Virus record (IMG/VR): IMGVR_UViG_2545824719_000022
Coordinates: 1-35,359 of that record
DNA from: a virus
Taxonomy: Duplodnaviria > Heunggongvirae > Uroviricota > Caudoviricetes
Strand: one strand, 5' to 3'
Length of the DNA: 35,359 nt
This document shows positions 6,516-29,292 of the stretch, piece after piece. The notes beneath the pieces are model-generated. The model worked only from the letters and a program-made list of their open reading frames with translations, did not search any database and was not told the origin of the DNA. The translations under genes were made by a program, and so were the position numbers. Positions within the stretch are counted from its first letter, which is position 1, and each line of letters starts with the position of its first letter.

Positions 6516-7034
6516 TCACAGGCCGATATTGCGGCGGTGTTGCTCCAGCCGGTCGACGCCGTTCACCTTCTCAATCATGTTGATGGTGTCGATTTCGACC
6601 AGCTCCTTACCGTCCATCGTCAGCCGGAAATAGGTGCAGACCACGGAGATTTTCGACTCGGTGTCTTCTCCCTGTTTCCCCTCGCCGGTGTCGATTTCTT
6701 TCTGACGTCCACGCATGACCACCTCGACGGCCACCGTTTCGCCGGTATCGTCACGCTGGTAAGAGCCTGCAAAACGAATCGGGACGGCATCCACGCCGGT
6801 TGCGGCGTAAAGCTCCCAGATAACCGAATCCGGGAAGCCACCGAGCGACCACTCCATTGACAGCGCATCGTCATCAAGGCCGAGGTCTACCGGTGCGCTG
6901 CCGTTCATCCCCGCACCGCGATAGTTTTCAAGCTTACGGGTCAGTTTTGGCAGCGTGACGGACTTTGCAACGCCCTGATAGCTGTAGCCGTTCAGAAAGA
7001 CGTTCATTAACTTGAGTTTGCGCGGCATTGCCAT
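6516..7034 (-). CDS. FII: Tail tube protein gpFII
   Basis: 172-aa ORF with ATG start; P2 FII-like sequence; immediately downstream of FI. Confidence 0.9.
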   Translation of the reverse strand: MAMPRKLKLMNVFLNGYSYQGVAKSVTLPKLTRKLENYRGAGMNGSAPVDLGLDDDALSMEWSLGGFPDSVIWELYAATGVDAVPIRFAGSYQRDDTGETVAVEVVMRGRQKEIDTGEGKQGEDTESKISVVCTYFRLTMDGKELVEIDTINMIEKVNGVDRLEQHRRNIGL

Positions 7035-7046
7035 CGGTCAGGCTCC

Positions 7047-8237
7047 TTAATTGCTGTTAACCGAAGTGACCAGATTTGCCAGGTATTTATCGGTAATACG
7101 CTGGCGCAGGGTCAGGTTTTCAAGAGGAGGCACCGGTGTATAGTCGTAGTCGATATACAGTTTTCCGGCCTTGAGGGTTTCCGCATCGTTGGATTCTTCG
7201 CTGAACCAGCAGGTCGCATCCACGATATAGCCGTTTGTTTTCAGCTCACGGAATTTGGCATTGATGCCGTCAACGATGTCGCGAATCAGCGTTGCGGTGA
7301 TGGGCTTGTCCACCGCCCACATGTGCGCCTCAGCCATCGTGTCGGCCAGCACCTGCGCGGTGCGGGTATAGTTTTCAAAGAGGAACAGCGGGTCATCAGA
7401 GCAGGTACGGTTACCCCAGAAGCGGAAACCGTCGCGGCGAATCAGCGTAGTGACGCCTGACTCGTTAAGCAGGTCAGCATCGGTGCCGAACTCCTGCAAA
7501 TCCCAGAATACAGATGCGCTGATGCCGGTAACACCATTTACCCCGACGTTGGACAACGTTTTATGCCAGCCCTGCTCCTGGTCGATTTTAGCACGCAGCC
7601 CCAGCGCACGGGCGGTGGCATACGCGGTGGCGGTGGTGCTGCTGACCGTATCCCATGCGAGGAAATCCGGCCAGATGACCATCAGCTCACGCTGGCTGAA
7701 ATTCTGGCGGTAGGCTTTCACCTCGGAAATGGTTTTACAGCCCCATGCGCTGATATACCCGAAAGCGCGCAGCTTCTGACAGACTGATGCCAGTGCAACA
7801 GCCACCTCTTTGGTGTCCAGTCCCGGCACGCCGAGAATACGCGGTTTAACACCGGTTACTGACTCCGCCGCCAGCAGGGCTTTCAGTCCGGTGTACTGAC
7901 CGTTTTCGTCGGTGGTGCCGATGATATTGGAAACGGTCTGCGCAAGTTTCGTTTCTTCGTCGTCGCCGGTGCCGTCTTCCACGCGCACGACAACGGTGAC
8001 CGGTTTTGACTGGTCAGCGATGGCCTGCAACGATGCCGCCAGCGTGCCTTTTTTACCGGCCTTTGCAATTGCGCTCTGCACATTGGTAATCAGCACAGGT
8101 TTATTGAGGGGGAAGGTTTCCGCATCCGCATCGCTGGCCGTGCAGACCATGCCGACAATGGCAGTGGATACAGTGGAAATGACGCGGGTGCCGTCGTTAA
8201 TCTCCAGCACCTGCACGCCGTGATGATAGTCACTCAT
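7047..8237 (-). CDS. FI: Contractile tail sheath protein gpFI
   Basis: 396-aa ORF with ATG start; P2 FI-like; first gene of the FI-FII-E-T-U-D block. Confidence 0.9.
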   Translation of the reverse strand: MSDYHHGVQVLEINDGTRVISTVSTAIVGMVCTASDADAETFPLNKPVLITNVQSAIAKAGKKGTLAASLQAIADQSKPVTVVVRVEDGTGDDEETKLAQTVSNIIGTTDENGQYTGLKALLAAESVTGVKPRILGVPGLDTKEVAVALASVCQKLRAFGYISAWGCKTISEVKAYRQNFSQRELMVIWPDFLAWDTVSSTTATAYATARALGLRAKIDQEQGWHKTLSNVGVNGVTGISASVFWDLQEFGTDADLLNESGVTTLIRRDGFRFWGNRTCSDDPLFLFENYTRTAQVLADTMAEAHMWAVDKPITATLIRDIVDGINAKFRELKTNGYIVDATCWFSEESNDAETLKAGKLYIDYDYTPVPPLENLTLRQRITDKYLANLVTSVNSN

Positions 8238-8723
8238 CCGTTTAACTCCGTGGTTAATGGGTGCAACTATTTTCTGTTGGGCAGTGCATGAGACGCTATT
8301 TGACCTGGCTGGTCAGTGGATGAAACAACAGATAAAGAAAATGCGGGCAATTCCCCCCGCCAGTCCTGATTTGCACTCACTCATTCTCCAACTGGCTACT
8401 TACATAGCCCAAACGCTATCAAATCTGACAGTCTGCTTTGAGCGATCTGCGGACATTACTAACAGCATTCTGTATGAATAACGGGGGGTAGATCATTCCT
8501 GTCCTCACGACGACGCCTATCTATCATACAGTCGTTCTTTGGATCAAGACGCGTTCTGAAATGGTGTTTTTATGTATGTGCTGAATTCTGGGGCATAGAG
8601 TAAACCTTTCAAATTGCCAGAAACAGAAATGTGCGATTTAGTTGTCAAGTAATACCGGATAATTCAGCGATTCATCAAGAAATCATCGACCAGGCTGCTG
8701 TACATTCTCATCGGACGATTTTA

Positions 8724-9590
8724 CTATTCCTCAAGATCGCAGTTACTGCAATGACCTTCCATCCGGAATGCACCACATTCACAAGGCTCCATAGGAACAA
8801 AACCATCCATCTTGCTGTATTCACATTTATACCAGAGACAGACACCGACCCTTTGTTCCGGTAAATAAATTACGGATGGGACACTACATTCAGGACATTC
8901 CTGAAAATCCCAAGTTTGCAGATTATTCAGGCTGAAACCACAACAGATACAGTGAGTCCGTGCCGGAAAGCTTTCACTTTGGTAAAGGATAAAATGTGAA
9001 AAACTCTCACAAACGGGACAAAGTGCAAGGGTGTATTCCTGGTTAACAGTTATATCAAGGAATTGTTGCTCAAGAGCGATGATGTCTTGACGTAAATCAG
9101 AGTTCCATGAATTTTCGGTCTCATCTGACTGAATTATGACGAATGCGGGACGAAAAATTTGTTGGTACAGTTCACTCAGTTGCATTGCCAGTTCTTGCGG
9201 ACGAACCTCAAGGGCAAAATGCTGAAGGTTATTACGCAACTGACCCACCGTTTTCATCATTTGTAATGCAGATTCAGAAAATTCGGCTGGGTAATATGTC
9301 TTTAACAGCTTACAAAGCTGGTTGACGTTGACAGATTTACACTGGTGTAATTCTGACTCGGTTGGATGCGCCGGATCCACACATTTTTCTTGAAGCGATG
9401 CTGGATTAAAAATCGCTCCAGACCCATTGCGCGAAACTACGGCCTTCAACAATAGCTCAGCGGCCTGAAAGAGGTTAAGCAGGCACTGTTTGTAGTCACG
9501 TCGATCATGCCCTTCTAGCGCTTTGTTAAAGTAGTCCAGCCCGGTTTCCACTGAATCCAACGCATTTTCTAGTAAGTTAAAACGGACCAT
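8724..9590 (-). CDS. Cargo protein: HEPN-like N-terminal domain (Rx4H motif RNNLQH) plus C-terminal cysteine-rich multi-zinc-ribbon region; candidate defence/abortive-infection effector
   Basis: 288-aa ORF with ATG start in an AT-rich insert. N-terminal 130 aa are helical-looking, with R119-x4-H124. C-terminal 100 aa carry CPVC, HCICC, CPEC, CLWYKC, CEC and CSNC motifs. No P2 backbone counterpart. Confidence 0.55.
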   Translation of the reverse strand: MVRFNLLENALDSVETGLDYFNKALEGHDRRDYKQCLLNLFQAAELLLKAVVSRNGSGAIFNPASLQEKCVDPAHPTESELHQCKSVNVNQLCKLLKTYYPAEFSESALQMMKTVGQLRNNLQHFALEVRPQELAMQLSELYQQIFRPAFVIIQSDETENSWNSDLRQDIIALEQQFLDITVNQEYTLALCPVCESFSHFILYQSESFPARTHCICCGFSLNNLQTWDFQECPECSVPSVIYLPEQRVGVCLWYKCEYSKMDGFVPMEPCECGAFRMEGHCSNCDLEE

Positions 9591-9753
9591 ATTAAAGCCC
9601 CCCGAATAGGCATCGTCGTTATGCCAGCGCTTCCGCCAGTTACACAGATAGTGATTGTACCCACGAATATTGGGAACCTATTTTAGCATGTTTAACTTTA
9701 GTAGTACTGACACAACATTCATGGAGCGGACTGATTGACTTTTGGGGCGTGTA

Positions 9754-9782
9754 TTTACAAACTCACTACAATGCTGTATAAT
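9754..9782 (+). promoter_or_regulatory. Near-consensus sigma70 promoter TTTACA-N17-TATAAT reading + (opposite to flanking genes)
   Basis: TTTACA at 9754-9759, a 17-bp spacer, then perfect TATAAT at 9777-9782; lies about 140 bp upstream of the small ORF at 9921. Confidence 0.5.
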
Positions 9783-9920
9783 TCGTGAAGAGTGAATTTA
9801 GCTAGTGCATCCATAGGTTCGATTCCTATGCCTACAATTCTCATCACAGCTCTCCCAATAGTCGCATTTATCCGTTACCTCAACGTGTTACTTAACGATT
9901 ACGTCAGTAAGGAGAAGCCT

Positions 9921-10097
9921 ATGAGTAAATTATTCCGCCATGTAGTACTACTATATGTATCTTGTTTCATTGAAACTTTTTGGGCTGGGGTGATAAGTGT
10001 AGTAGCGGGTCTGATGACGGGCGGTGTCCAAATTATTTTGGCACTAGCTAAATCTTCTCAATTTTTGTTTTTTTATTCAAAGCACTTACCCCCATAA
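9921..10097 (+). CDS. Small hydrophobic protein (58 aa), probable membrane peptide
   Basis: ATG preceded by a strong SD AAGGAG with 6-nt spacing. Product MSKLFRHVVLLYVSCFIETFWAGVISVVAGLMTGGVQIILALAKSSQFLFFYSKHLPP is largely hydrophobic (1-2 predicted TM helices). The track's longer 101-aa version starts at GTG 9792, right at the predicted transcription start. Confidence 0.45.
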   Translation: MSKLFRHVVLLYVSCFIETFWAGVISVVAGLMTGGVQIILALAKSSQFLFFYSKHLPP

Positions 10098-10374
10098 ATA
10101 TTATTTAAATCAATAAACTAAGTCACTCTACGCATATTTTCCTTATCATGGTCTTTCGTGTTTTTTGTACTCAACATGATCGTTTCTCCTTTCTTTAATA
10201 CACAGTATGATTAGCTACGCCTTCTGTTGGAGCGAAGTGGACGAGTTAATTGAGCTGAATGTCAGCTATGAGCGAGGAACGGACTTCAAGAAAGTACCTA
10301 ACTGCGTATCGATTGCAAAATATGACAGTCTAACGGTGTTAAGGGCCATGAGTGCAGCCCTTAAGAAAAAAGTA

Positions 10375-11310
10375 TTAATAATATTTCCTGGCTTGCGCGC
10401 TCGTTTCGGTTAAGTTTATTTCATGGTAGTGATTATTTATAAAGTCACAAAAAGTACTAATTTTATCTTTGAGATTACTCATGCTATGCGTGATTTCGTC
10501 GTATAAATCGCTTTCCTCCTGATTTCGACAGTGGTCACCGGGATTTATAAAACTAAAAGTATCATTTGGTGCTGAATAATTATATGGAGCTTTTCTAAAC
10601 AAGATAATTAGATCACGCCAGGCCGTTGCAAAATCAATTGTAACATTCTTTAAAGCTGTATCATTCAGTTGAAAAACAGGTGAGTTTAAAATGTTCAAAA
10701 TATTATCGTATTCTTCAATAATTAATGAATGAATGTATTTTGCGCCCCACTGCAAATGTTCTATTGTTGAATGAAAATCAATAACATTCAACAATGTCGA
10801 CAAATTTGAGATATCTCTCTTGCGCAAAAATTCTTCCCTCGTCGGTTGGTGTCGTTCGAACATTTGCGGGTAGTACATTTTGAGTACAGCTGGGTCTTTG
10901 CTTAAATCAAAGCTAATATCCTCCCAGAAAACCACATCGACAGGAAACAGGCCTTTTAATTGTCTGGCATCATTGAGTGTTCTTACATAGCGCTGAATGC
11001 TAACATCCCTGGGCGCTGTCGTAGCGATGTAAAGAACCGTAATTTTTGGGCGAAATTTTTCAGCCTTGAGTAATTCATCATCGATTGTCGCCGTACTGAT
11101 TCCTGATACTGTATTTTTACACTGAATTCCAACGAAACGCCCAAGAGAGTAATCACCATATACATCAACTCCATCCTGCCGCTGCCCTGACCGTCCATGT
11201 CTGTTCAGATTAGGATTGGACCATCGCAGTTGGAATGAACTTTTGCACATATCCTCAAATTCGTCCCAAGATTTAGGGGGGGGTAACAACATTGAATTAT
11301 ATGTAACCAC
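10375..11310 (-). CDS. Cargo protein: Mrr-like PD-(D/E)xK restriction-endonuclease-fold N-terminal domain plus uncharacterised C-terminal domain; candidate defence nuclease
   Basis: 311-aa ORF with GTG start 7 nt after SD AAGGA (alternative ATG at 11292). N-terminus shows W..FE..C....F, then DGVDVYG, then GIQCK, then hydrophobic beta-strand-like segments (ITVLYIATT, VDVVFWEDIS): the typical Mrr catalytic-domain layout. AT-rich. Confidence 0.6.
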   Translation of the reverse strand: MVTYNSMLLPPPKSWDEFEDMCKSSFQLRWSNPNLNRHGRSGQRQDGVDVYGDYSLGRFVGIQCKNTVSGISTATIDDELLKAEKFRPKITVLYIATTAPRDVSIQRYVRTLNDARQLKGLFPVDVVFWEDISFDLSKDPAVLKMYYPQMFERHQPTREEFLRKRDISNLSTLLNVIDFHSTIEHLQWGAKYIHSLIIEEYDNILNILNSPVFQLNDTALKNVTIDFATAWRDLIILFRKAPYNYSAPNDTFSFINPGDHCRNQEESDLYDEITHSMSNLKDKISTFCDFINNHYHEINLTETSAQARKYY

Positions 11311-11785
11311 TTACTAATCCTTTATCTAAGATTCTTCATTTTTGTAATCACTATCATAATCATGCTTGATGTGCAATATCTTATTTGCCATGGTTATATG
11401 ACGTGAACATAATATATGCTGTAAGTATAAGCAGAATTTATTAATGGTGTTCGCCACTCAACGTAATGGTTTCACACTCTAAGGCTCTTTTTTAATAAAT
11501 CAAAACATTATGGACAGTGAATCATATCGGAAATGGTTCCTTTTAAATTGAATAACGGCCATAGTACACAGGTGTATGTGTTAATCGATTTTTCAGACGT
11601 TTTTTTCGCCTAACATGAGATTTCGTTCGATTAAGCACCAGACCCAATTACCACTATTTAATGAGTACAATTGCTTTACTTTAGGTCGAGTAGTAGTAAC
11701 GTCCGCTCTTGGCACAGAGCGGACTGTCAGATTAGGCTTTACTCTGTGCCATAGATATGTAATCTCACACCAGAGCTTATACAAC

Positions 11786-12313
11786 TTATTGCGGCATTTC
11801 CGGCCATTCAGGATTTGCAGGATCCACACGGCTGACCAGAACACTGTAGCGTTCCCATGCTTCCAGTCGGCTACGCTCCTCATCTGTTGCCATGTTCAGC
11901 CTGACAGCGCGCTCCAGTGGCAAAATCACGGATTCAGCATCTGCAAGAAGTCTGGCTTTCCGGTTTTCTGCCTGCTGCTGCAATTCCTCTGCCGTATAAA
12001 TGCGTTTAATCACTTTGCCGTCCTTAAACATCCAGTTCCCTGAAATGTCCGCCCGTCGGTTAGCAGTAATATCCGCCACTTCAACCACACTTAATCCATC
12101 TGGTCTGATAGCTGTCACATCCTTTTCCACATAGCGGATAATATTATCTTTGTCGTACGCTATTTTTATCGTGTCATCAGCAAAATACTTTTGTTCTTCG
12201 TACCAGTTCTTACCATCTTCTGAAAAAAACCAGACAACATCAAAGTCCTTTGTCAATTGATATTGTTCAACCGTTTTTGGATTACCCACCGTTATATTTA
12301 TCAAATGCTGCAT
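11786..12313 (-). CDS. G: Tail fibre assembly protein gpG
   Basis: 175-aa ORF with ATG start directly downstream of H; P2 G/Tfa-like sequence. Confidence 0.85.
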
Positions 12314-12316
12314 AAA

Positions 12317-14899
12317 TTATACCTGCGCCACGTTATACCATGTCCCGTTAATGTATTTCTGCACCGGTCTGTAATATATGCCACCAATGTTATCGGCAGA
12401 GTTTGAGCCGGTATCCTGAACAATAATGCCGGAATATACACACCCGGACGGTGCCTGATGTGTCCATGTCATGCCATTGTTCGCAGGTTTGTATGTGGCA
12501 GCACCACCAAGCCGGATATCCCGGACATAGCGTGAATCAAAGTTGCCATAGTTAGATGGTGATACCTGCCCGTTAACAGCAAAAGTGATGCTGTTATCTG
12601 TATTTCTCTGACTGTAAAAATGCCAGCCTGCATCATCACCTAATTCAGCCACCACCGGACGACTTGAGTTTCCCCACAAATTGAATGCGGCTTCCTTCGT
12701 GGATGTATTACTGCTGCTGACCGTGAATTTTTTCCCGCTACCGGCACGTACTTTGGTACTTGAGACAATATCACCAGTAACATTCAGGCCATGCCCCATT
12801 GATACAGCACCCGTGGCATCATTTATAATCAGCGGTCTTAAATTATTATAACTGCCTAATCTGTCACCTGATTTAGTCAACATAAAATAAGTGCTGCTGC
12901 CATCATTCCTGATAAAGAAACCATAATTGCCATAAGCAATGCGCAGACCATTAGCACTGAGTGATGTAATCTCACCTCTTGAACGGAGACCATAAGCGGA
13001 GCTGAGTGATAATTCTTCCTGAGCATCAGTATTACCAGTCGCCCAGCGAACTACCCCGCCCTGTACTGTTTCATGCCAGATAGTGTCTCCTTCTCCACCA
13101 CGAAACTTTCTGAGATATTTTTTGCCGCCTCTGGTGCCTGAACATAAGGCCGTAGACATATAGGCATTCTGGCTTCCGCCATCCTGATTAATCGTTCCGG
13201 TCATTGCGTCGCCCTGACGATTCCAGTCACGACGCCAGCCGGGGGAGTAGCCGTCCCCATGATTTATGTAAGTGAATTGCGCGCTGGTTGTACCGCCACC
13301 ACTTGATGTTGTCGGCGTGGTCACTCGAATAGTGATTGCAGATTTAGTTCCCATGACCTCGACGACACAACCAGCCAGGTGGATATCACCACATCCGGTA
13401 TCCGTAATGATTTTGTTATTTGCATATGACCAGGAGCCTTTGCACATCCAGTACGGATGATTAAATGCACCACGGGAATCCAGCCATTCAATAAACTGAG
13501 CGGTTGTCCAGTTTCCGGCTTCAGTGCTCAAAGCGCCGCTATAAGCACGACAGGCACCGATATTTTTCGTGAAGGTATCCTTTCCCGGAATATCCGCACC
13601 GTTCTGATCTTTCTGAAGACGTTTTTCAGCATTGTCATAGGCAGACTTCACCGCTTTTGATGTTGCAGCCAGCGTTTCAGAATCGCTGTTGGTGGCGCTA
13701 CTGAGCTGGACAAGACCTTTCCGCGCCGTGGTGGCGTCCTGTGCAGTGTATTTCCCGTTAGCAAGGTCATACGCTGTCTTAACCGCCTTTGGCGTTGCCG
13801 CAAGCGTTTCAGAATCGCTGTTGGTGGCGCTACTGAGCTGGACAAGACCTTTTCGCGCTGTGGTGGCATCCTGTGCAGTGTATTTCCCGTTAGCAAGGTC
13901 ATACGCTGTCTTAACCGCCTTTGGCGTTGCCGCAAGCGTTTCAGAATCGCTGTTGGTGGCGCTACTGAGCTGGACAAGACCTTTTCGCGCTGTGGTGGCA
14001 TCCTGTGCAGTGTATTTCCCGTTAGCAAGGTCATACGCTGTCTTAACCGCCTTTGGCGTTGCCGCAAGCGTTTCAGAATCGCTGTTGGTGACGCTACTGA
14101 GCTGGACAAGACCTTTTCGCGCGGTGGTGGCATCCTGTGCGGTATATTTCCCGTTAGCAAGGTCATATGCTGCCTTTACCGCTTTTGGTGTTGCGGCGAG
14201 CGTTTCAGACGTGCTGTTGGTGGCACTACTGAGCTGGACAAGGCCTTTTCGCGCTATGGTGGCGTCCTGTGCGGTATATTTCCCGTTAGCAAGGTCATAC
14301 GCGGCCTTTACCGCTTTCGGCGTTGCGGCCAGTGTTTCAGACGTGCTGTTGGTCGCACTGCTTAACTGAGTAAAACCTTTTGCGGTCAGCGAGGCGTCAG
14401 GGTGACGTCGTGACTGTTCATGTTCTGCAATTTTGTCATCAACGTAATCCTGCGTTGCCATCACCGTTGTGGTGTCAATGGTCAGCTCCACTGAGGCCAC
14501 ACTGCTGACGATGATGACCATGCGGCAGGTCTGCGAACGCCCTGAGCCTTCGGCAAGGGCTGGCTTATAACTTTCGGCCATGTTCGCCACGGCAATTAGC
14601 GTTCCCGCATCATCGTACAGGCCAAGTTCACGCATCCAGAAACCGCCCACCTCCGGCGGAATAACCAGCTCTGCGATAATATAATTACTGTTTCGTTTGT
14701 CCTGGCTGATTTTGTTCAGCGCATGTCGCCAGACTTCGTGGATAAGCCCGGTCTGTCCGGCATCCGGGACAGGCAATTTACCCCCGCCATCCCCGACGGC
14801 CATCGTGGTAATATTGACCTTCCGCCCTCCCGGTGCGGTTGCCGCTGCCAGCTTTGCTGCACCGGCAGTGGTGATAACGGTTCTGAATTTTGTGCTCAT
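12317..14899 (-). CDS. H: Tail fibre protein gpH (receptor-binding), with internal tandem repeats
   Basis: 860-aa ORF with ATG start; conserved P2 H-like N-terminus (MSTKFRTVITTAGAAKLAAATAPGG...), about 5.5 copies of a 44-aa repeat, and a distal receptor-binding-type region. Confidence 0.9.
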   Translation of the reverse strand: MSTKFRTVITTAGAAKLAAATAPGGRKVNITTMAVGDGGGKLPVPDAGQTGLIHEVWRHALNKISQDKRNSNYIIAELVIPPEVGGFWMRELGLYDDAGTLIAVANMAESYKPALAEGSGRSQTCRMVIIVSSVASVELTIDTTTVMATQDYVDDKIAEHEQSRRHPDASLTAKGFTQLSSATNSTSETLAATPKAVKAAYDLANGKYTAQDATIARKGLVQLSSATNSTSETLAATPKAVKAAYDLANGKYTAQDATTARKGLVQLSSVTNSDSETLAATPKAVKTAYDLANGKYTAQDATTARKGLVQLSSATNSDSETLAATPKAVKTAYDLANGKYTAQDATTARKGLVQLSSATNSDSETLAATPKAVKTAYDLANGKYTAQDATTARKGLVQLSSATNSDSETLAATSKAVKSAYDNAEKRLQKDQNGADIPGKDTFTKNIGACRAYSGALSTEAGNWTTAQFIEWLDSRGAFNHPYWMCKGSWSYANNKIITDTGCGDIHLAGCVVEVMGTKSAITIRVTTPTTSSGGGTTSAQFTYINHGDGYSPGWRRDWNRQGDAMTGTINQDGGSQNAYMSTALCSGTRGGKKYLRKFRGGEGDTIWHETVQGGVVRWATGNTDAQEELSLSSAYGLRSRGEITSLSANGLRIAYGNYGFFIRNDGSSTYFMLTKSGDRLGSYNNLRPLIINDATGAVSMGHGLNVTGDIVSSTKVRAGSGKKFTVSSSNTSTKEAAFNLWGNSSRPVVAELGDDAGWHFYSQRNTDNSITFAVNGQVSPSNYGNFDSRYVRDIRLGGAATYKPANNGMTWTHQAPSGCVYSGIIVQDTGSNSADNIGGIYYRPVQKYINGTWYNVAQV
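13620..14390. repeat. About 5.5 near-identical tandem copies of a 132-bp unit inside H (phage tail fibre repeat)
   Basis: Period measured directly: the GCGTTTCAG motif recurs at 13672, 13804 and 13936 (132 bp apart). Protein unit is GLVQLSSATNS(D/T)SETLAATPKAVK(A/T)AYDLANGKYTAQDATTARK. Boundaries approximate. Confidence 0.85.
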
Positions 14900-27075: not shown

Positions 27076-29292
27076 ATGGAACTTAGATTAAAAAATGTTA
27101 CCAGTTATAAGAAAGACGCCTTCACAATACTGAATCTTGAAAAAAGAGTAAACATACTATACGGCCAAAATGGTTGTGGCAAATCTACCATTTCAAATTA
27201 TTTCTACGACTCTACACACACAGATTATAACGAGTGTGAATGTACCCTTCTTGACAATTACAAACCTCTTGTTTACAACACTAAATTTATTGAAGATAAT
27301 TTCTACAATGCACAGGAACAAAAAGGTGTTTTTACATTAAGTAAAGAAAATGCAGATATTGAAAAACAATTAATTAAAAAAGAAGCAATTAAACAGCAAC
27401 TTACAGAGCAATATAGACAAAAAAAAGGAGTGTTATTGAAATTAGAAGCAGAAATGGAAAAAAAAGAAAATGAATACATCGAATCGATCTGGAAAAAAAC
27501 AGAACCAATCAGAAACTCTGTACTAAAAATCTTAATGAAAGGTAAAGTTGGCTATAAAAGACCTTTTTTTGAGATGATAAAATCATCCTCACCAATCACC
27601 TTTATTAATTTAAATGATATAGCAAAAGAATACTCTATACTATTAGAAAATAGAAACAATGAAACCGCATTAATAACTCCTTTACACCCATATACCCCAT
27701 CAATTGATGATGTAAATACATTAGCAACACCTATAATAGATACAAGCAATAGCTATTTATCAGAAACCATTAATAAACTTCATAATCTTGACTGGGTAAA
27801 AAAAGGTAAAGAACATTATTTAGACGGTTCTACATGTCCGTTTTGTCAGGAAAAAACTATTAGTCGCGAATTTTTAAATGCCCTTAAATCAATATTTGAC
27901 GAAAGTTATTCAAAGAAAGTAAAACAGCTCTCAGATATAAAGTCAGTTTATGAGAAAAATACCATATATCATTTTAACGAAATACAAAACAATATATCAT
28001 CATGTGCACTAATCAATGAGAAAGATAAAGAGATCATTATTTCCAATATTAAAATATTGCAAAACATTGCAGAAAAAAATTTAATAAACATTATTGATAA
28101 GATCAACAATCCATCAACATGCGTTACATTAGAAATTGATAAAGAACTAGAAAATCATGTTCAGGAAAGCATAGACGCTGTTAACAAAAAAATAAGAGAC
28201 ATAAATGATAAGGTTAAAAAACTCAAAGAGTATGAGAATAAAATCGGAAAACAAGTTTGGGGGGCTCTCCATGCTTTTTGCAGCGATGATTTAGAGAATT
28301 TATCCAAACACAAAGAAAAATTCTTTGATATCAAAAAGAAAGTTCATGATGAATTAAATAATATTGAGCAACAAGGAAAAGAAAATAATCTCACAATAAA
28401 AGCATTGCGAGATAAAATATCTAACATTGATTCTACGATAGACTCAATAAACACCCATTTAAAAAATCTAGGGATCTCTGGTTTTTGTATTGAAAAACAT
28501 GCAGAAAGAAAAGATATGTACATTATATCTCGACCAGGGCATACAAAAAACCAAAATGTTTATAGATCTCTTAGCGAAGGTGAAAAAACACTAATAACGT
28601 TTCTTTATTTTTTAGAGTGCTGTAAAGGTAAAACCGATAAAAATGATACCGATAGCAGGGATATTTTTATTGTTATTGACGATCCAATATCTAGTCTATC
28701 GCAAAACTATGTCTACGACATCGCATCAATTATTCATCACCACATTATAAAAAATGAATTAACAAAGAAGGTATTAATCCTTACTCACAATCTTTATTTC
28801 TTTCATGAACTTATTAAGCTATCTCCTAAAAGCAGAGAAGACAAACTATTTAAGAAAAACTATTATCTAGGTAGAGTAACGAAAAATGATTTTAGTATAA
28901 TTACTGAAATACAAAAAAACAGCATACAGAATGAATATCAATCTTTGTGGCAAATATTAAAAGATGCAAAAGATGGCAAAGCAAACAAAATCATAATACC
29001 TAATATTATGAGAAACATACTAGAATATTATTTTGCATTTGTTCATAGAACAGATGCTCTACAAGATGAATTAACAAAGTTGGCACGCGACGATAGCAAC
29101 AGTGATTTCAAAGCATTCTACAGATACATTAACAGAGGTTCTCACTCTGATGCGGTAAATATTACTGATATGGGCGACATAGACCCAGATAAATACCTAA
29201 AACAATTGAGAACAATATTTTCAGCTACTGGTGACGAAATGCATTATTTAAAAATGATGGACGAACTAGAAGAGGAGAACGTTACCGCTTAG
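27076..29292 (+). CDS. Cargo protein: RloC/PrrC-family anticodon nuclease-like ABC/Rad50-type ATPase (738 aa)
   Basis: Motifs read from the translation: Walker A GQNGCGKST near the N-terminus; long Lys/Glu-rich coiled-coil with central CPFC zinc-hook-like motif; ABC signature-like LSEGEK; Walker B IFIVIDDP; H-loop LILTHN; C-terminal R-x3-E (RNILEYY) and N-x2-S-H (NRGSHSD) resembling the PrrC/RloC anticodon-nuclease catalytic motifs. Very AT-rich; ATG preceded by GAGG. Confidence 0.65.
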   Translation: MELRLKNVTSYKKDAFTILNLEKRVNILYGQNGCGKSTISNYFYDSTHTDYNECECTLLDNYKPLVYNTKFIEDNFYNAQEQKGVFTLSKENADIEKQLIKKEAIKQQLTEQYRQKKGVLLKLEAEMEKKENEYIESIWKKTEPIRNSVLKILMKGKVGYKRPFFEMIKSSSPITFINLNDIAKEYSILLENRNNETALITPLHPYTPSIDDVNTLATPIIDTSNSYLSETINKLHNLDWVKKGKEHYLDGSTCPFCQEKTISREFLNALKSIFDESYSKKVKQLSDIKSVYEKNTIYHFNEIQNNISSCALINEKDKEIIISNIKILQNIAEKNLINIIDKINNPSTCVTLEIDKELENHVQESIDAVNKKIRDINDKVKKLKEYENKIGKQVWGALHAFCSDDLENLSKHKEKFFDIKKKVHDELNNIEQQGKENNLTIKALRDKISNIDSTIDSINTHLKNLGISGFCIEKHAERKDMYIISRPGHTKNQNVYRSLSEGEKTLITFLYFLECCKGKTDKNDTDSRDIFIVIDDPISSLSQNYVYDIASIIHHHIIKNELTKKVLILTHNLYFFHELIKLSPKSREDKLFKKNYYLGRVTKNDFSIITEIQKNSIQNEYQSLWQILKDAKDGKANKIIIPNIMRNILEYYFAFVHRTDALQDELTKLARDDSNSDFKAFYRYINRGSHSDAVNITDMGDIDPDKYLKQLRTIFSATGDEMHYLKMMDELEEENVTA

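What the first reader, a model, noticed from the sequence alone, without database searches (positions are those of the whole stretch)
8724..9590. HEPN-like (Rx4H) protein with a C-terminal cluster of about six Cys pairs
RNNLQH at residues 119-124 sits at the end of a helical N-terminal domain, as in HEPN RNases. The last ~100 residues contain CPVC, HCICC, CPEC, CLWYKC, CEC and CSNC, consistent with two or three zinc ribbons. HEPN-plus-zinc-ribbon proteins are typical of toxin/abortive-infection effectors, and I do not recognise this architecture as a named family.
Basis: inference. Interest (0 to 1): 0.75.

Follow-up and report, generated by a model that had tools for sequence, protein, structure and literature searches.

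The report
Prophage HEPN RNase with zinc-ribbon sensor
This is an intact gene in the cargo slot of a P2-like prophage that encodes a predicted RNA-cutting (HEPN) domain joined to three zinc-binding ribbons; it is a distant relative of HEC-08, a single-gene anti-phage defence already shown to work, so it is a believable new member of a known kind rather than a new kind of system.

Summary
A 288-aa ORF lies at 8724-9590, on the minus strand. RNNLQH sits at residues 119-124. Thirteen of its 17 Cys are in the last 100 residues.

Across 20 homologues (32-76% identical to the window protein; a 99% twin was left out), R119, N120, Q123, H124 and 12 Cys are invariant. Twelve Cys fit three Cys4 zinc ribbons.

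The architecture is not unnamed. HEC-08 (Payne et al. 2024 preprint) is a DUF3644-type HEPN followed by zinc ribbons. It defends as a single gene, and its Rx4-6H histidine is required. The window family links to it only transitively: A1 vs an intermediate family scores E=9e-33 over the full length, and that family vs HEC-08 scores E=9e-24. The direct match is weak and covers the HEPN domain only.

The gene sits in the P2 Z/fun hotspot between the tail-fibre assembly and tail sheath genes, inside a cassette bounded by a 24-nt palindromic repeat. The same cassette occurs in a different chromosomal island.

Most likely it is a trigger-activated defence RNase whose zinc-ribbon domain senses the invader. 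Activity, trigger and target are all untested.

The parts
8724..9590 (-). HEPN-zinc-ribbon gene, 288 aa plus stop (identical to RefSeq WP_000251361.1, annotated 'hypothetical protein')
   Evidence: ORF list and translation. 100% DNA identity to 8 complete E. coli genomes. RefSeq annotation. Exact full-length match to phrog_20819, function unknown.
9126..9590 (-). N-terminal HEPN domain, residues 1-155 (all-helical bundle)
9219..9236 (-). Codons for R119-N-N-L-Q-H124, the Rx4H catalytic motif at the end of helix 106-124
   Evidence: Position confirmed. R119, N120, Q123 and H124 are invariant in 20 sequences. The motif aligns with RNKIQH/RNRIxH of the intermediate family and with RNRVVH (H128) of the tested HEC-08.
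9036..9125 (-). Linker, residues 156-185 (loop plus helix 165-181); the most variable segment
   Evidence: Mean pairwise identity 41%, against 55% for the HEPN domain and 60% for the zinc-ribbon domain. Secondary structure.
8727..9035 (-). C-terminal triple zinc-ribbon domain, residues 186-288. Inferred sites: C191/C194+C214/C217, C232/C235+C251/C256, C270/C272+C281/C284
8431..8454 (+). Left copy of the 24-nt imperfect palindrome GTCnGYTnTGWGCSAnnnnCGGAC; core of inverted-repeat arm 8422-8461 and left boundary of the HEPN cassette
   Evidence: The pattern occurs 3 times in the window with 0 expected. 40-nt inverted repeat. The same motif lies in the annotated 'left inverted repeat' of the P2-EC30 Z region. 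Homology with the second E. coli context begins here.
10261..10284 (+). Middle copy of the repeat; right boundary of the HEPN cassette, separating it from the 311-aa gene cassette
   Evidence: Homology with the island in strain Ec1119 ends at window position 10286.
11701..11724 (-). Right (inverted) copy of the repeat; core of inverted-repeat arm 11694-11733 and outer boundary of the Z/fun cargo
8343..8360 (-). Terminator-like hairpin downstream of the gene, in the conserved P2 flank before the tail sheath gene
   Evidence: Consensus scan only. Weak evidence: the number of terminator-like sites found is no higher than in shuffles.
9921..10097 (+). Small hydrophobic ORF (58 aa in RefSeq), divergent from the HEPN gene and inside the same cassette; role unknown, probably not a partner
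   Evidence: Annotated as a hypothetical protein in both E. coli contexts. No family hit. Absent from the loci of more distant homologues.
10375..11310 (-). Neighbouring cargo gene, 311 aa, Mrr-like restriction-endonuclease-type N-terminus; a separate cassette, not required by the HEPN gene
   Evidence: No Pfam or PADLOC hit. phrog_8991. 173 clusters, some named 'Restriction endonuclease type IV Mrr domain' by UniRef. Present in 13 of the 28 E. coli genomes that carry the HEPN gene.

Best explanation
The gene encodes a single-protein anti-invader defence carried as a 'moron' in the Z/fun hotspot of a P2-like prophage. The proposed mechanism has four steps.

(1) [Shown] The N-terminal 155 residues adopt a HEPN fold with an invariant R119-x4-H124 motif.

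(2) [Inferred from the HEPN family] Two HEPN domains pair to form a composite RNase site that is kept inactive in uninfected cells.

(3) [Inferred by analogy with RAZR/PD-T7-4 and HepS] The C-terminal triple Cys4 zinc-ribbon module is the sensor or regulatory part. It binds a phage-made protein or nucleic acid and changes the oligomeric arrangement so that the RNase switches on.

(4) [Inferred] RNA cleavage (tRNA or bulk mRNA, unknown) stops translation and aborts the infection, which protects the lysogen population and therefore the prophage.

The protein belongs to the same superfamily and has the same architecture as HEC-08, a validated single-gene defence whose Rx4-6H histidine is essential. 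It is a short (three-ribbon) and strongly diverged branch of that superfamily.

For: Catalytic motif: R119, N120, Q123, H124 and 12 Cys are invariant across homologues 32-76% identical to the window protein.

Homology to the validated family. PADLOC gives HEC-08 E=4e-6 over residues 14-285 and PDC-S64 E=4e-21. hhalign of A1 against 12 intermediate ~290-aa proteins gives prob 99.9, E=9e-33 over 261 columns, including RNxxxH and all six Cys pairs. Five of those 12 intermediates were scanned against PADLOC: four hit the HEC-08 model at 1e-17 to 1e-25 and one (P0067) at 3e-9. As a profile the 12 match the tested HEC-08 protein with prob 99.6, E=9e-24 over 259 columns. HEC-08 function and the H128 requirement are reported in bioRxiv 10.1101/2024.01.29.577857.

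Context. The gene lies between the tail-fibre assembly and tail sheath genes of a complete P2-like prophage. Vassallo et al. describe this locus as a second P2 defence hotspot that holds fun and three of their new systems (PMC9519451). GC content drops to 0.37-0.45 in the cargo, against about 0.57 in the flanking tail genes.

Autonomy. The 1.85-kb cassette alone is also found in a chromosomal island beside a P4-like remnant with a reverse-transcriptase gene. That context accounts for 15 of the 28 E. coli genomes carrying the gene. Homologues in Serratia, Dickeya, Klebsiella plasmids and metagenomes sit among HEC-04-like ATPase-TOPRIM, Gabija-like, RES, type I R-M, DUF4238 and toxin-antitoxin genes.

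Sensor analogy. In RAZR the Cys4 zinc-ribbon domain binds phage ring proteins and sets specificity (PMC13017515). HepS is a prophage single-HEPN Abi protein activated by tail-tip proteins (PMC13043305).
Against: No experiment exists for this protein or its close family, and a literature search for its accessions found nothing.

The direct relationship to the tested HEC-08 protein is weak and covers the HEPN domain only: BLASTP 21% identity over 112 aa, and hhalign prob 92%, E=5.5e-7 over 103 columns. HEC-08 itself is known only from a preprint, and its trigger and RNA target are unknown.

The zinc-ribbon domain is not the most variable part in this family (60% mean identity against 55% for HEPN). 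In RAZR the sensor is the most variable region, so the 'specificity sensor' role is less obvious here.

In several genera a 313-362 aa gene with an RHH-like N-terminus lies just upstream. In Klebsiella it is separated from the HEPN start by one base, so some family members may work with a partner.

Zinc binding and HEPN dimerisation were not tested.
Confidence: 0.65

Rival explanations
1. It is the toxin or effector half of a two-component system (toxin-antitoxin or sensor-effector) and needs a partner. Candidates are the upstream 311-aa Mrr-like gene, the small hydrophobic divergent ORF, or, in other genera, the RHH-like X/Y proteins.
For: Y-family genes (362 and 333 aa, 39% identical to each other, RHH/DUF6364-like N-terminus) lie directly upstream on the same strand in a Klebsiella plasmid (1-nt gap) and in locus L019 (85-nt gap). 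A Y remnant abuts the Dickeya gene. X-family genes lie near the homologues in L003, L011 and L020. In the window a ~311-aa gene also sits upstream on the same strand. Many HEPN toxins are neutralised by a neighbouring gene, for example HepT/MntA (one search hits).
Against: X, Y and the window's 311-aa protein are mutually unrelated. No trace of X or Y exists in the window or in the E. coli, Raoultella or L013 loci. In Dickeya, Y is reduced to a 95-aa remnant while the HEPN gene is intact. Fifteen of 28 E. coli genomes carry the HEPN gene without the 311-aa gene, and a repeat copy separates the two cassettes. HEC-08 works as a single gene. No MNT nucleotidyltransferase gene is adjacent.
Confidence: 0.12
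2. The same kind of trigger-activated HEPN nuclease, but aimed at conjugative plasmids or other mobile elements rather than phages, as described for the Ishtar HEPN proteins.
For: Ishtar1 and Ishtar2 have an N-terminal HEPN domain (DUF4145 or DUF3644) plus a C-terminal beta-rich domain of unknown function. They cause loss of plasmid RP4 and occur in P4 satellites and integrons (bioRxiv 10.64898/2026.07.06.735840). One homologue of the window protein is plasmid-borne, beside a Rep3 gene.
Against: The Ishtar homologues listed are about 212 aa with no Cys pairs, and the window protein's accessions are absent from their homologue table. The closest validated relative, HEC-08, was scored against phages. 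A prophage tail-gene hotspot is a typical place for anti-phage morons.
Confidence: 0.1
3. A non-catalytic HEPN and zinc-ribbon protein that binds nucleic acid or nucleotides and serves the prophage itself (regulation, RNA processing) rather than defence.
Against: Non-catalytic HEPN families generally lack the Rx4-6H dyad (PMC3710099), whereas here R, N and H are invariant. The gene is not part of the P2 core: only the flanks match other P2-like phages (8-10% coverage). tblastn finds it in none of 50,697 phage records. It also occurs outside prophages.
Confidence: 0.05

Closest known systems
HEC-08 (Hma-embedded candidate 08; tested protein WP_001313577.1 from E. coli ECOR52; Payne et al. 2024 preprint; PADLOC model PDLC04162)
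   Same: Single gene. N-terminal DUF3644-type HEPN domain with an R-N-x-x-x-H motif, followed by several C-terminal CxxC zinc-ribbon-like modules. Found in defence and mobile-element contexts. The C-terminal domain has no solved structural counterpart in either case. Transitive full-length homology through an intermediate family.
   Different: Direct similarity is only 21% identity, restricted to the HEPN domain, and the HEC-08 HMM scores only 24 bits. The window protein has 288 aa and three ribbons, whereas HEC-08 has 366 aa and roughly nine Cys pairs. The window family has an 18-residue insert with two extra invariant Cys (C70, C84) in the HEPN domain. It sits in the P2 Z/fun locus, not embedded in an Hma system.
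PDC-S64 (PADLOC single-gene phage-defence candidate, PDLC05059)
   Same: Best PADLOC hit, E=4e-21. A true member (P0067, E=6e-141) shares the HEPN-plus-CxxC architecture.
   Different: Only profile positions 1-129 of 339 are matched well, so the C-terminal halves differ. I found no literature on PDC-S64, and to my knowledge it is an untested candidate.
RAZR / PD-T7-4 (ring-activated zinc-finger RNase)
   Same: Single protein combining a Cys4 zinc-ribbon domain and a HEPN RNase. Non-toxic until a phage protein triggers it, and it acts by abortive infection. This is the best mechanistic template for 'the zinc ribbon senses, the HEPN cuts' (PMC13017515).
HepS (Gifsy-1 prophage single-HEPN abortive-infection protein; PDB 9oik)
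   Different: HepS has no zinc-ribbon domain, belongs to a different HEPN family, and sits in a lambdoid rather than a P2-like prophage.
HepT/MntA type VII toxin-antitoxin HEPN toxins (5yep, 7ae2, 7bxo)
   Different: HepT proteins are about 130 aa with no zinc ribbons and are controlled by an adjacent MNT nucleotidyltransferase. No such gene is present here.

Membership tests
HEPN superfamily | All-helical up-and-down bundle fold | tested here: met
HEPN superfamily | Conserved Rx4-6H motif at the end of a core helix | tested here: met
   R119 and H124 (with N120 and Q123) are invariant in 20 sequences, homologues 32-76% identical to the window protein. The motif lies at the end of helix 106-124.
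HEPN superfamily | Metal-independent RNase activity formed at a dimer interface | not testable with these tools
   Needs biochemistry.
HEC-08-like HEPN-zinc-ribbon defence proteins | N-terminal DUF3644-type HEPN domain homologous to that of the tested HEC-08 protein | tested here: met
   hhalign of A1 against WP_001313577.1 gives prob 92.3, E=5.5e-7 over 103 columns ending at the RNxxxH motif. BLASTP E=6e-4. PADLOC DUF3644 model E=7.7e-4.
HEC-08-like HEPN-zinc-ribbon defence proteins | Several C-terminal zinc-ribbon-like modules homologous to those of HEC-08 | tested here: inconclusive
   Three ribbons are present. They align with HEC-08 only transitively: A1 vs A2 E=9e-33 includes all Cys pairs, and A2 vs HEC-08 E=9e-24 includes the ribbons. 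The direct A1-HEC-08 alignment stops after the HEPN domain.
HEC-08-like HEPN-zinc-ribbon defence proteins | Confident match to the PADLOC HEC-08 HMM | tested here: inconclusive
   E=4.2e-6, 24.1 bits, residues 14-285 on profile positions 20-300 of 358. Coverage is full length but the score is low. Four of the five scanned intermediate relatives score 62-87 bits, and P0067 scores 34.5.
HEC-08-like HEPN-zinc-ribbon defence proteins | Single-gene anti-phage phenotype abolished by mutating the Rx4-6H histidine | not testable with these tools
   Shown for HEC-08 only.
PDC-S64 (PADLOC candidate) | Full-length match to the model | tested here: not met
   E=4.3e-21, but the best stretch covers only profile positions 1-129 of 339. 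A true member, P0067, covers 2-333 at E=6e-141.
Pfam DUF3644 (PF12358) | Score at or above the gathering threshold (27.6 bits) | tested here: not met
   15.7 bits, E=0.011. The tested HEC-08 protein has no Pfam hit at E<=0.01, and the intermediate P0064 reaches only 21.5 bits, so this threshold is a poor criterion for the clade.
RAZR / PD-T7-4 | N-terminal Cys4 zinc-ribbon domain followed by a C-terminal DUF4145-type HEPN domain | tested here: not met
   The order is reversed here (HEPN 1-155, ribbons 186-288). No PD-T7-4 or DUF4145 hit in PADLOC or Pfam.
HepT/MntA type VII toxin-antitoxin | Adjacent MNT nucleotidyltransferase antitoxin gene | tested here: not met
   Neither the ORF list for 7000-11500 nor the RefSeq annotation of the tail-fibre-to-tail-sheath cargo shows an MNT-type gene next to it. 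The neighbouring ORFs at 9792-10097 and 10375-11310 have no Pfam or PADLOC match of that kind.
Ishtar anti-plasmid HEPN proteins | HEPN plus a cysteine-free beta/alpha C-terminal domain; listed in the paper's homologue table | tested here: not met
   The listed homologues are about 212 aa without CxxC pairs. WP_000251361 and WP_034169311 are absent from Table S3.

The most novel reading that the evidence does not exclude
The compact triple zinc-ribbon module may be a new kind of portable sensor domain. It has no solved structural counterpart, and it also occurs on a different N-terminal domain in P0051. It could recognise a specific phage-made structure and switch on attached effectors. In addition, the HEPN-ribbon gene may be a common effector that pairs with interchangeable upstream ~310-360 aa genes (the RHH-like X and Y families, the Mrr-like gene, an S1 peptidase). 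These would be assembled by cassette exchange at the 24-nt palindromic repeats of the P2 Z locus, making that locus an integron-like workshop for two-gene defence systems.
Probability: 0.12. Interest if true: 0.7.

Novelty: new member of a known kind. Interest (0 to 1): 0.38.

Why it matters
It adds a rare branch to the HEC-08-type HEPN-zinc-ribbon defence proteins: 28 of 5,426 complete E. coli genomes and 36 clusters in the 5.8-billion-protein set. The branch reaches no curated Pfam or NCBIfam cut-off, and only weak or partial PADLOC matches were found.

The gene sits in the less-studied second defence hotspot of P2-like prophages, in a small well-delimited cassette (about 1.85 kb) that could be cloned directly.

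No trigger or RNA target is known for any member of this architecture. This minimal three-ribbon version would therefore be a convenient model for asking how a zinc-ribbon module controls a HEPN RNase, and for comparison with RAZR, where the domain order is reversed.

It is not a new principle: prophage-borne, trigger-activated single-gene HEPN defences are established.

Tried and rejected
- Foldseek against AFDB50 could not be run because the library was unavailable.
- tblastn of the protein against 50,697 phage records found nothing, even though a PHROG matches it exactly.
- The literature search for 'PDC-S64' found nothing. The search for the protein accessions and phrog_20819 found nothing.
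- The PDB sequence profile search gave only a TFIIB zinc-ribbon hit.
- Rfam on the cargo region gave nothing credible.
- The promoter scan found no more sites than in shuffles and no convincing promoter just upstream of the gene.
- I tested whether the window's 311-aa neighbour is the counterpart of the genes found near homologues elsewhere. It has no similarity to X or Y, and X and Y are unrelated to each other.
- I tested whether the small ORFs next to the Raoultella homologue resemble the window's small ORF. Judged by eye from the translations, they do not.
- I considered the Vassallo PD-systems. None of the PADLOC hits is a PD-T4, PD-T7 or PD-lambda model, and the accessions are absent from their supplement.
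- I considered Ishtar and rejected it on architecture.
- I rejected the two-gene reading with the 311-aa gene because of the E. coli census and the repeat between the two genes.

Full report
**1. What is there**

The window is an essentially complete P2-like prophage inserted next to yegQ. An E. coli genome with 99.9% identity across the cargo region shows the full gene order: ogr, D, U, T, E/E', tail tube, tail sheath, cargo, tail-fibre assembly, tail fibre, baseplate, lysis, capsid, terminase, portal, a second cargo gene, replication endonuclease, cox, repressor and integrase (PHROG matches for the tail genes).

The finding's coordinates, 8724-9590, are exactly one ORF of 288 aa, but on the minus strand. 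It lies between the tail sheath gene (7047-8237) and the tail-fibre assembly gene (11786-12313). That position is the P2 'Z/fun' variable locus. GC content falls from about 0.57 in the flanking tail genes to 0.37-0.45 across 8200-11800. Other P2-like phages match only the flanks of this interval, 8-10% coverage.

**2. Checking the observation**

RNNLQH is at residues 119-124.

An Rx4H string alone means little, because 23% of shuffles of this sequence contain one. Conservation settles it. The 5.8-billion-protein search found only 36 clusters, nearly all from Enterobacterales, plus Aeromonas and a few metagenomic sequences. In an alignment of the window protein with 19 of them (32-76% identical to it), R119, N120, Q123, H124 and exactly 12 Cys are invariant. 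Twelve Cys amount to three Cys4 sites: 191/194+214/217, 232/235+251/256 and 270/272+281/284.

**3. Structure**

AlphaFold2 on that alignment gives a confident model (pLDDT 87.5, pTM 0.82). It has a helical bundle (residues 1-155) with the motif at the end of helix 106-124, a linker helix, and a C-terminal domain made of short beta-hairpins.

**4. What family it belongs to**

Pfam and NCBIfam give nothing above threshold; HEPN and DUF3644 appear only at E around 0.01-0.03. PADLOC gives PDC-S64 at E=4e-21 on the HEPN half only, HEC-08 at E=4e-6 across the full length, and PDC-S19, DUF3644 and Csm6/Csx1 weakly.

HEC-08 is described in Payne et al. (bioRxiv 10.1101/2024.01.29.577857). [quoted passage not shown] It is one of seven embedded candidates that reduced plaquing in E. 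coli. H128 of its Rx4-6H motif is essential, and its C-terminal structure resembles nothing known.

I took the tested sequence (WP_001313577.1, 366 aa) from their Table S2. Direct comparison with the window protein is weak. BLASTP gives 21% identity over 112 aa. hhalign gives prob 92%, E=5.5e-7 over 103 columns that end at the RNxxxH motif.

An exhaustive profile search of 1.84 billion representatives found 647 relatives. Many are about 290-aa proteins aligned end to end. Twelve of these share RNxIxH and the same six Cys pairs. Five of the twelve were scanned against PADLOC: four hit the HEC-08, PDC-S64 and DUF3644 models at 1e-17 to 1e-29, and the fifth (P0067) is a true PDC-S64 member at 6e-141.

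As a profile, these twelve match the window family at prob 99.9, E=9e-33 over 261 columns. They match HEC-08 at prob 99.6, E=9e-24 over 259 columns. The window protein is therefore a diverged, minimal (three-ribbon) branch of the HEC-08/PDC-S64 superfamily. Anantharaman et al. 2013 had already noted a DUF3644-overlapping HEPN family fused to ZnR domains in R-M contexts.

**5. Does it act alone?**

Among 5,426 complete E. coli genomes, 28 carry the gene at 99% identity or more. Thirteen have it in this P2 locus together with the upstream 311-aa gene. Fifteen have it in a chromosomal island near paoD/ykgR. That island lies beside a P4-like remnant (psu, a reverse-transcriptase gene) and contains S1 peptidase, DUF4236 and DUF2971 genes, but not the 311-aa gene.

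The DNA shared by the two contexts is window 8431-10286. It begins and ends inside copies of a 24-nt imperfect palindrome, GTCnGYTnTGWGCSAnnnnCGGAC. This motif occurs exactly three times in the window, with none expected by chance: at 8431, 10261 and 11701. The outer copies are the cores of 40-nt inverted repeats. These correspond to the 'inverted repeats' annotated in the P2-EC30 Z region. The middle copy separates the HEPN cassette from the 311-aa cassette.

The 311-aa protein belongs to a broad family of its own. Some members are named Mrr-type restriction endonuclease, and the N-terminal half is shared with other architectures.

In other genera the neighbours are unrelated to the window's neighbours. 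They often include a 313-362 aa protein with an RHH-like N-terminus, in two families (X and Y) that are unrelated to each other. A HEC-04-like ABC-ATPase/TOPRIM gene is also common. Y is separated from the HEPN start by a single base in a Klebsiella plasmid, but is a 95-aa remnant in Dickeya where the HEPN gene is intact. I read this as defence-island clustering, with a possible optional partner in some lineages. The E. coli gene is autonomous.

**6. Mechanism**

Shown here: the HEPN fold, the invariant catalytic dyad, three conserved Cys4 ribbons, mobile-cassette and defence-hotspot context, and homology to a validated single-gene defence.

Inferred: the HEPN domains dimerise into a composite RNase that is silent until infection. 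The ribbon module senses a phage product and releases the activity, and RNA cleavage aborts the infection.

The templates for these inferences are two published systems. In RAZR/PD-T7-4 a Cys4 zinc-ribbon domain binds phage ring proteins and sets specificity (PMC13017515). HepS is a prophage HEPN protein activated by tail-tip proteins that cuts tRNA anticodon loops (PMC13043305).

One caveat applies. In this family the ribbon domain is not more variable than the HEPN domain (60% against 55% mean identity), and the linker is the most variable part at 41%. The target RNA and the trigger are unknown. An anti-plasmid role like that of Ishtar cannot be excluded, though Ishtar proteins lack the ribbons.

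**7. Verdict**

The claim of an unnamed architecture is not supported.

This is a new, divergent member of a known and experimentally supported kind. It is of moderate interest as a minimal, cleanly delimited example in the P2 Z/fun hotspot, which Vassallo et al. flagged as a second defence locus (PMC9519451).

Noticed in passing
window 8431-8454 (+), 10261-10284 (+), 11701-11724 (-); inverted-repeat arms 8422-8461 / 11694-11733: A 24-nt imperfect palindrome occurs exactly three times (0 expected). It brackets the Z/fun cargo and splits it into two cassettes. Homology with a second E. coli genomic context of the HEPN gene starts and stops inside these repeats. The same motif lies in the 'inverted repeat' annotated in the P2-EC30 Z region. 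This suggests cassette exchange by recombination at these sites.
   Followed up: partly
window 10375-11310 (-): A second cargo gene of 311 aa with no Pfam or PADLOC hit. Its family (173 clusters in many genera, some on plasmids) is sometimes named 'Restriction endonuclease type IV Mrr domain', and its N-terminal half recurs with other C-terminal halves. It is probably an independent, uncharacterised defence candidate.
   Followed up: partly
window 9921-10097 (+) (longer GTG-started ORF 9792-10097): A small, very hydrophobic ORF (58 aa in RefSeq), divergent from the HEPN gene and carried in the same cassette in both E. coli contexts. It has no family match and is not conserved next to distant homologues. 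A strong sigma-70-like site (11 of 12 matches) lies at 9754-9782 on the + strand.
   Followed up: partly
window 27076-29292 (+): A 738-aa AAA/ABC-type ATPase in the other P2 hotspot (the old/tin position, between the portal and replication genes). It matches the PADLOC candidate PDC-S06 at E=5e-254, with weaker PrrC and LmuB similarity.
   Followed up: no
L003 2012-4702; L011 6935-9750; L015 4911-8500; L019 3915-4916; L020 3796-4755: Homologues of the HEPN-ribbon gene in Serratia, Dickeya, Klebsiella plasmids and metagenomes repeatedly sit next to two kinds of gene. One is a 521-523 aa HEC-04-like ABC ATPase-TOPRIM gene (E about 1e-30). The other is a 313-362 aa protein with an RHH-like N-terminus, in two unrelated families (X and Y). 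Y abuts the HEPN start codon in Klebsiella and is a truncated remnant in Dickeya.
   Followed up: partly
P0051 (372 aa) and P0099 (375 aa), from the representative search: P0051 carries the same C-terminal triple-ribbon module (profile positions 161-285) on a different, Pfam-silent N-terminal domain containing a 'GNQGSHH' motif. P0099 adds an N-terminal HNH nuclease (21.8 bits against a 21.4 cut-off) in front of the HEPN-ribbon unit. Both point to modular reuse of the ribbon domain.
   Followed up: partly
window 12317-14899 (-): The tail fibre gene is 860 aa here, against 772 aa (2,319 bp) in the otherwise near-identical prophage of strain 120899. The host-range module therefore differs between prophages that carry the same cargo.
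   Followed up: no
L017 / L018 (E. coli chromosomal island near ykgR/paoD): The second home of the HEPN cassette is a mosaic island. It holds a P4-like psu gene, a reverse-transcriptase gene plus a hypothetical gene, an IS3-disrupted integrase, then the HEPN cassette, S1 peptidase, DUF4236 and DUF2971 genes and a tail-fibre-assembly remnant. This is a likely defence island built from phage and satellite debris.
   Followed up: no
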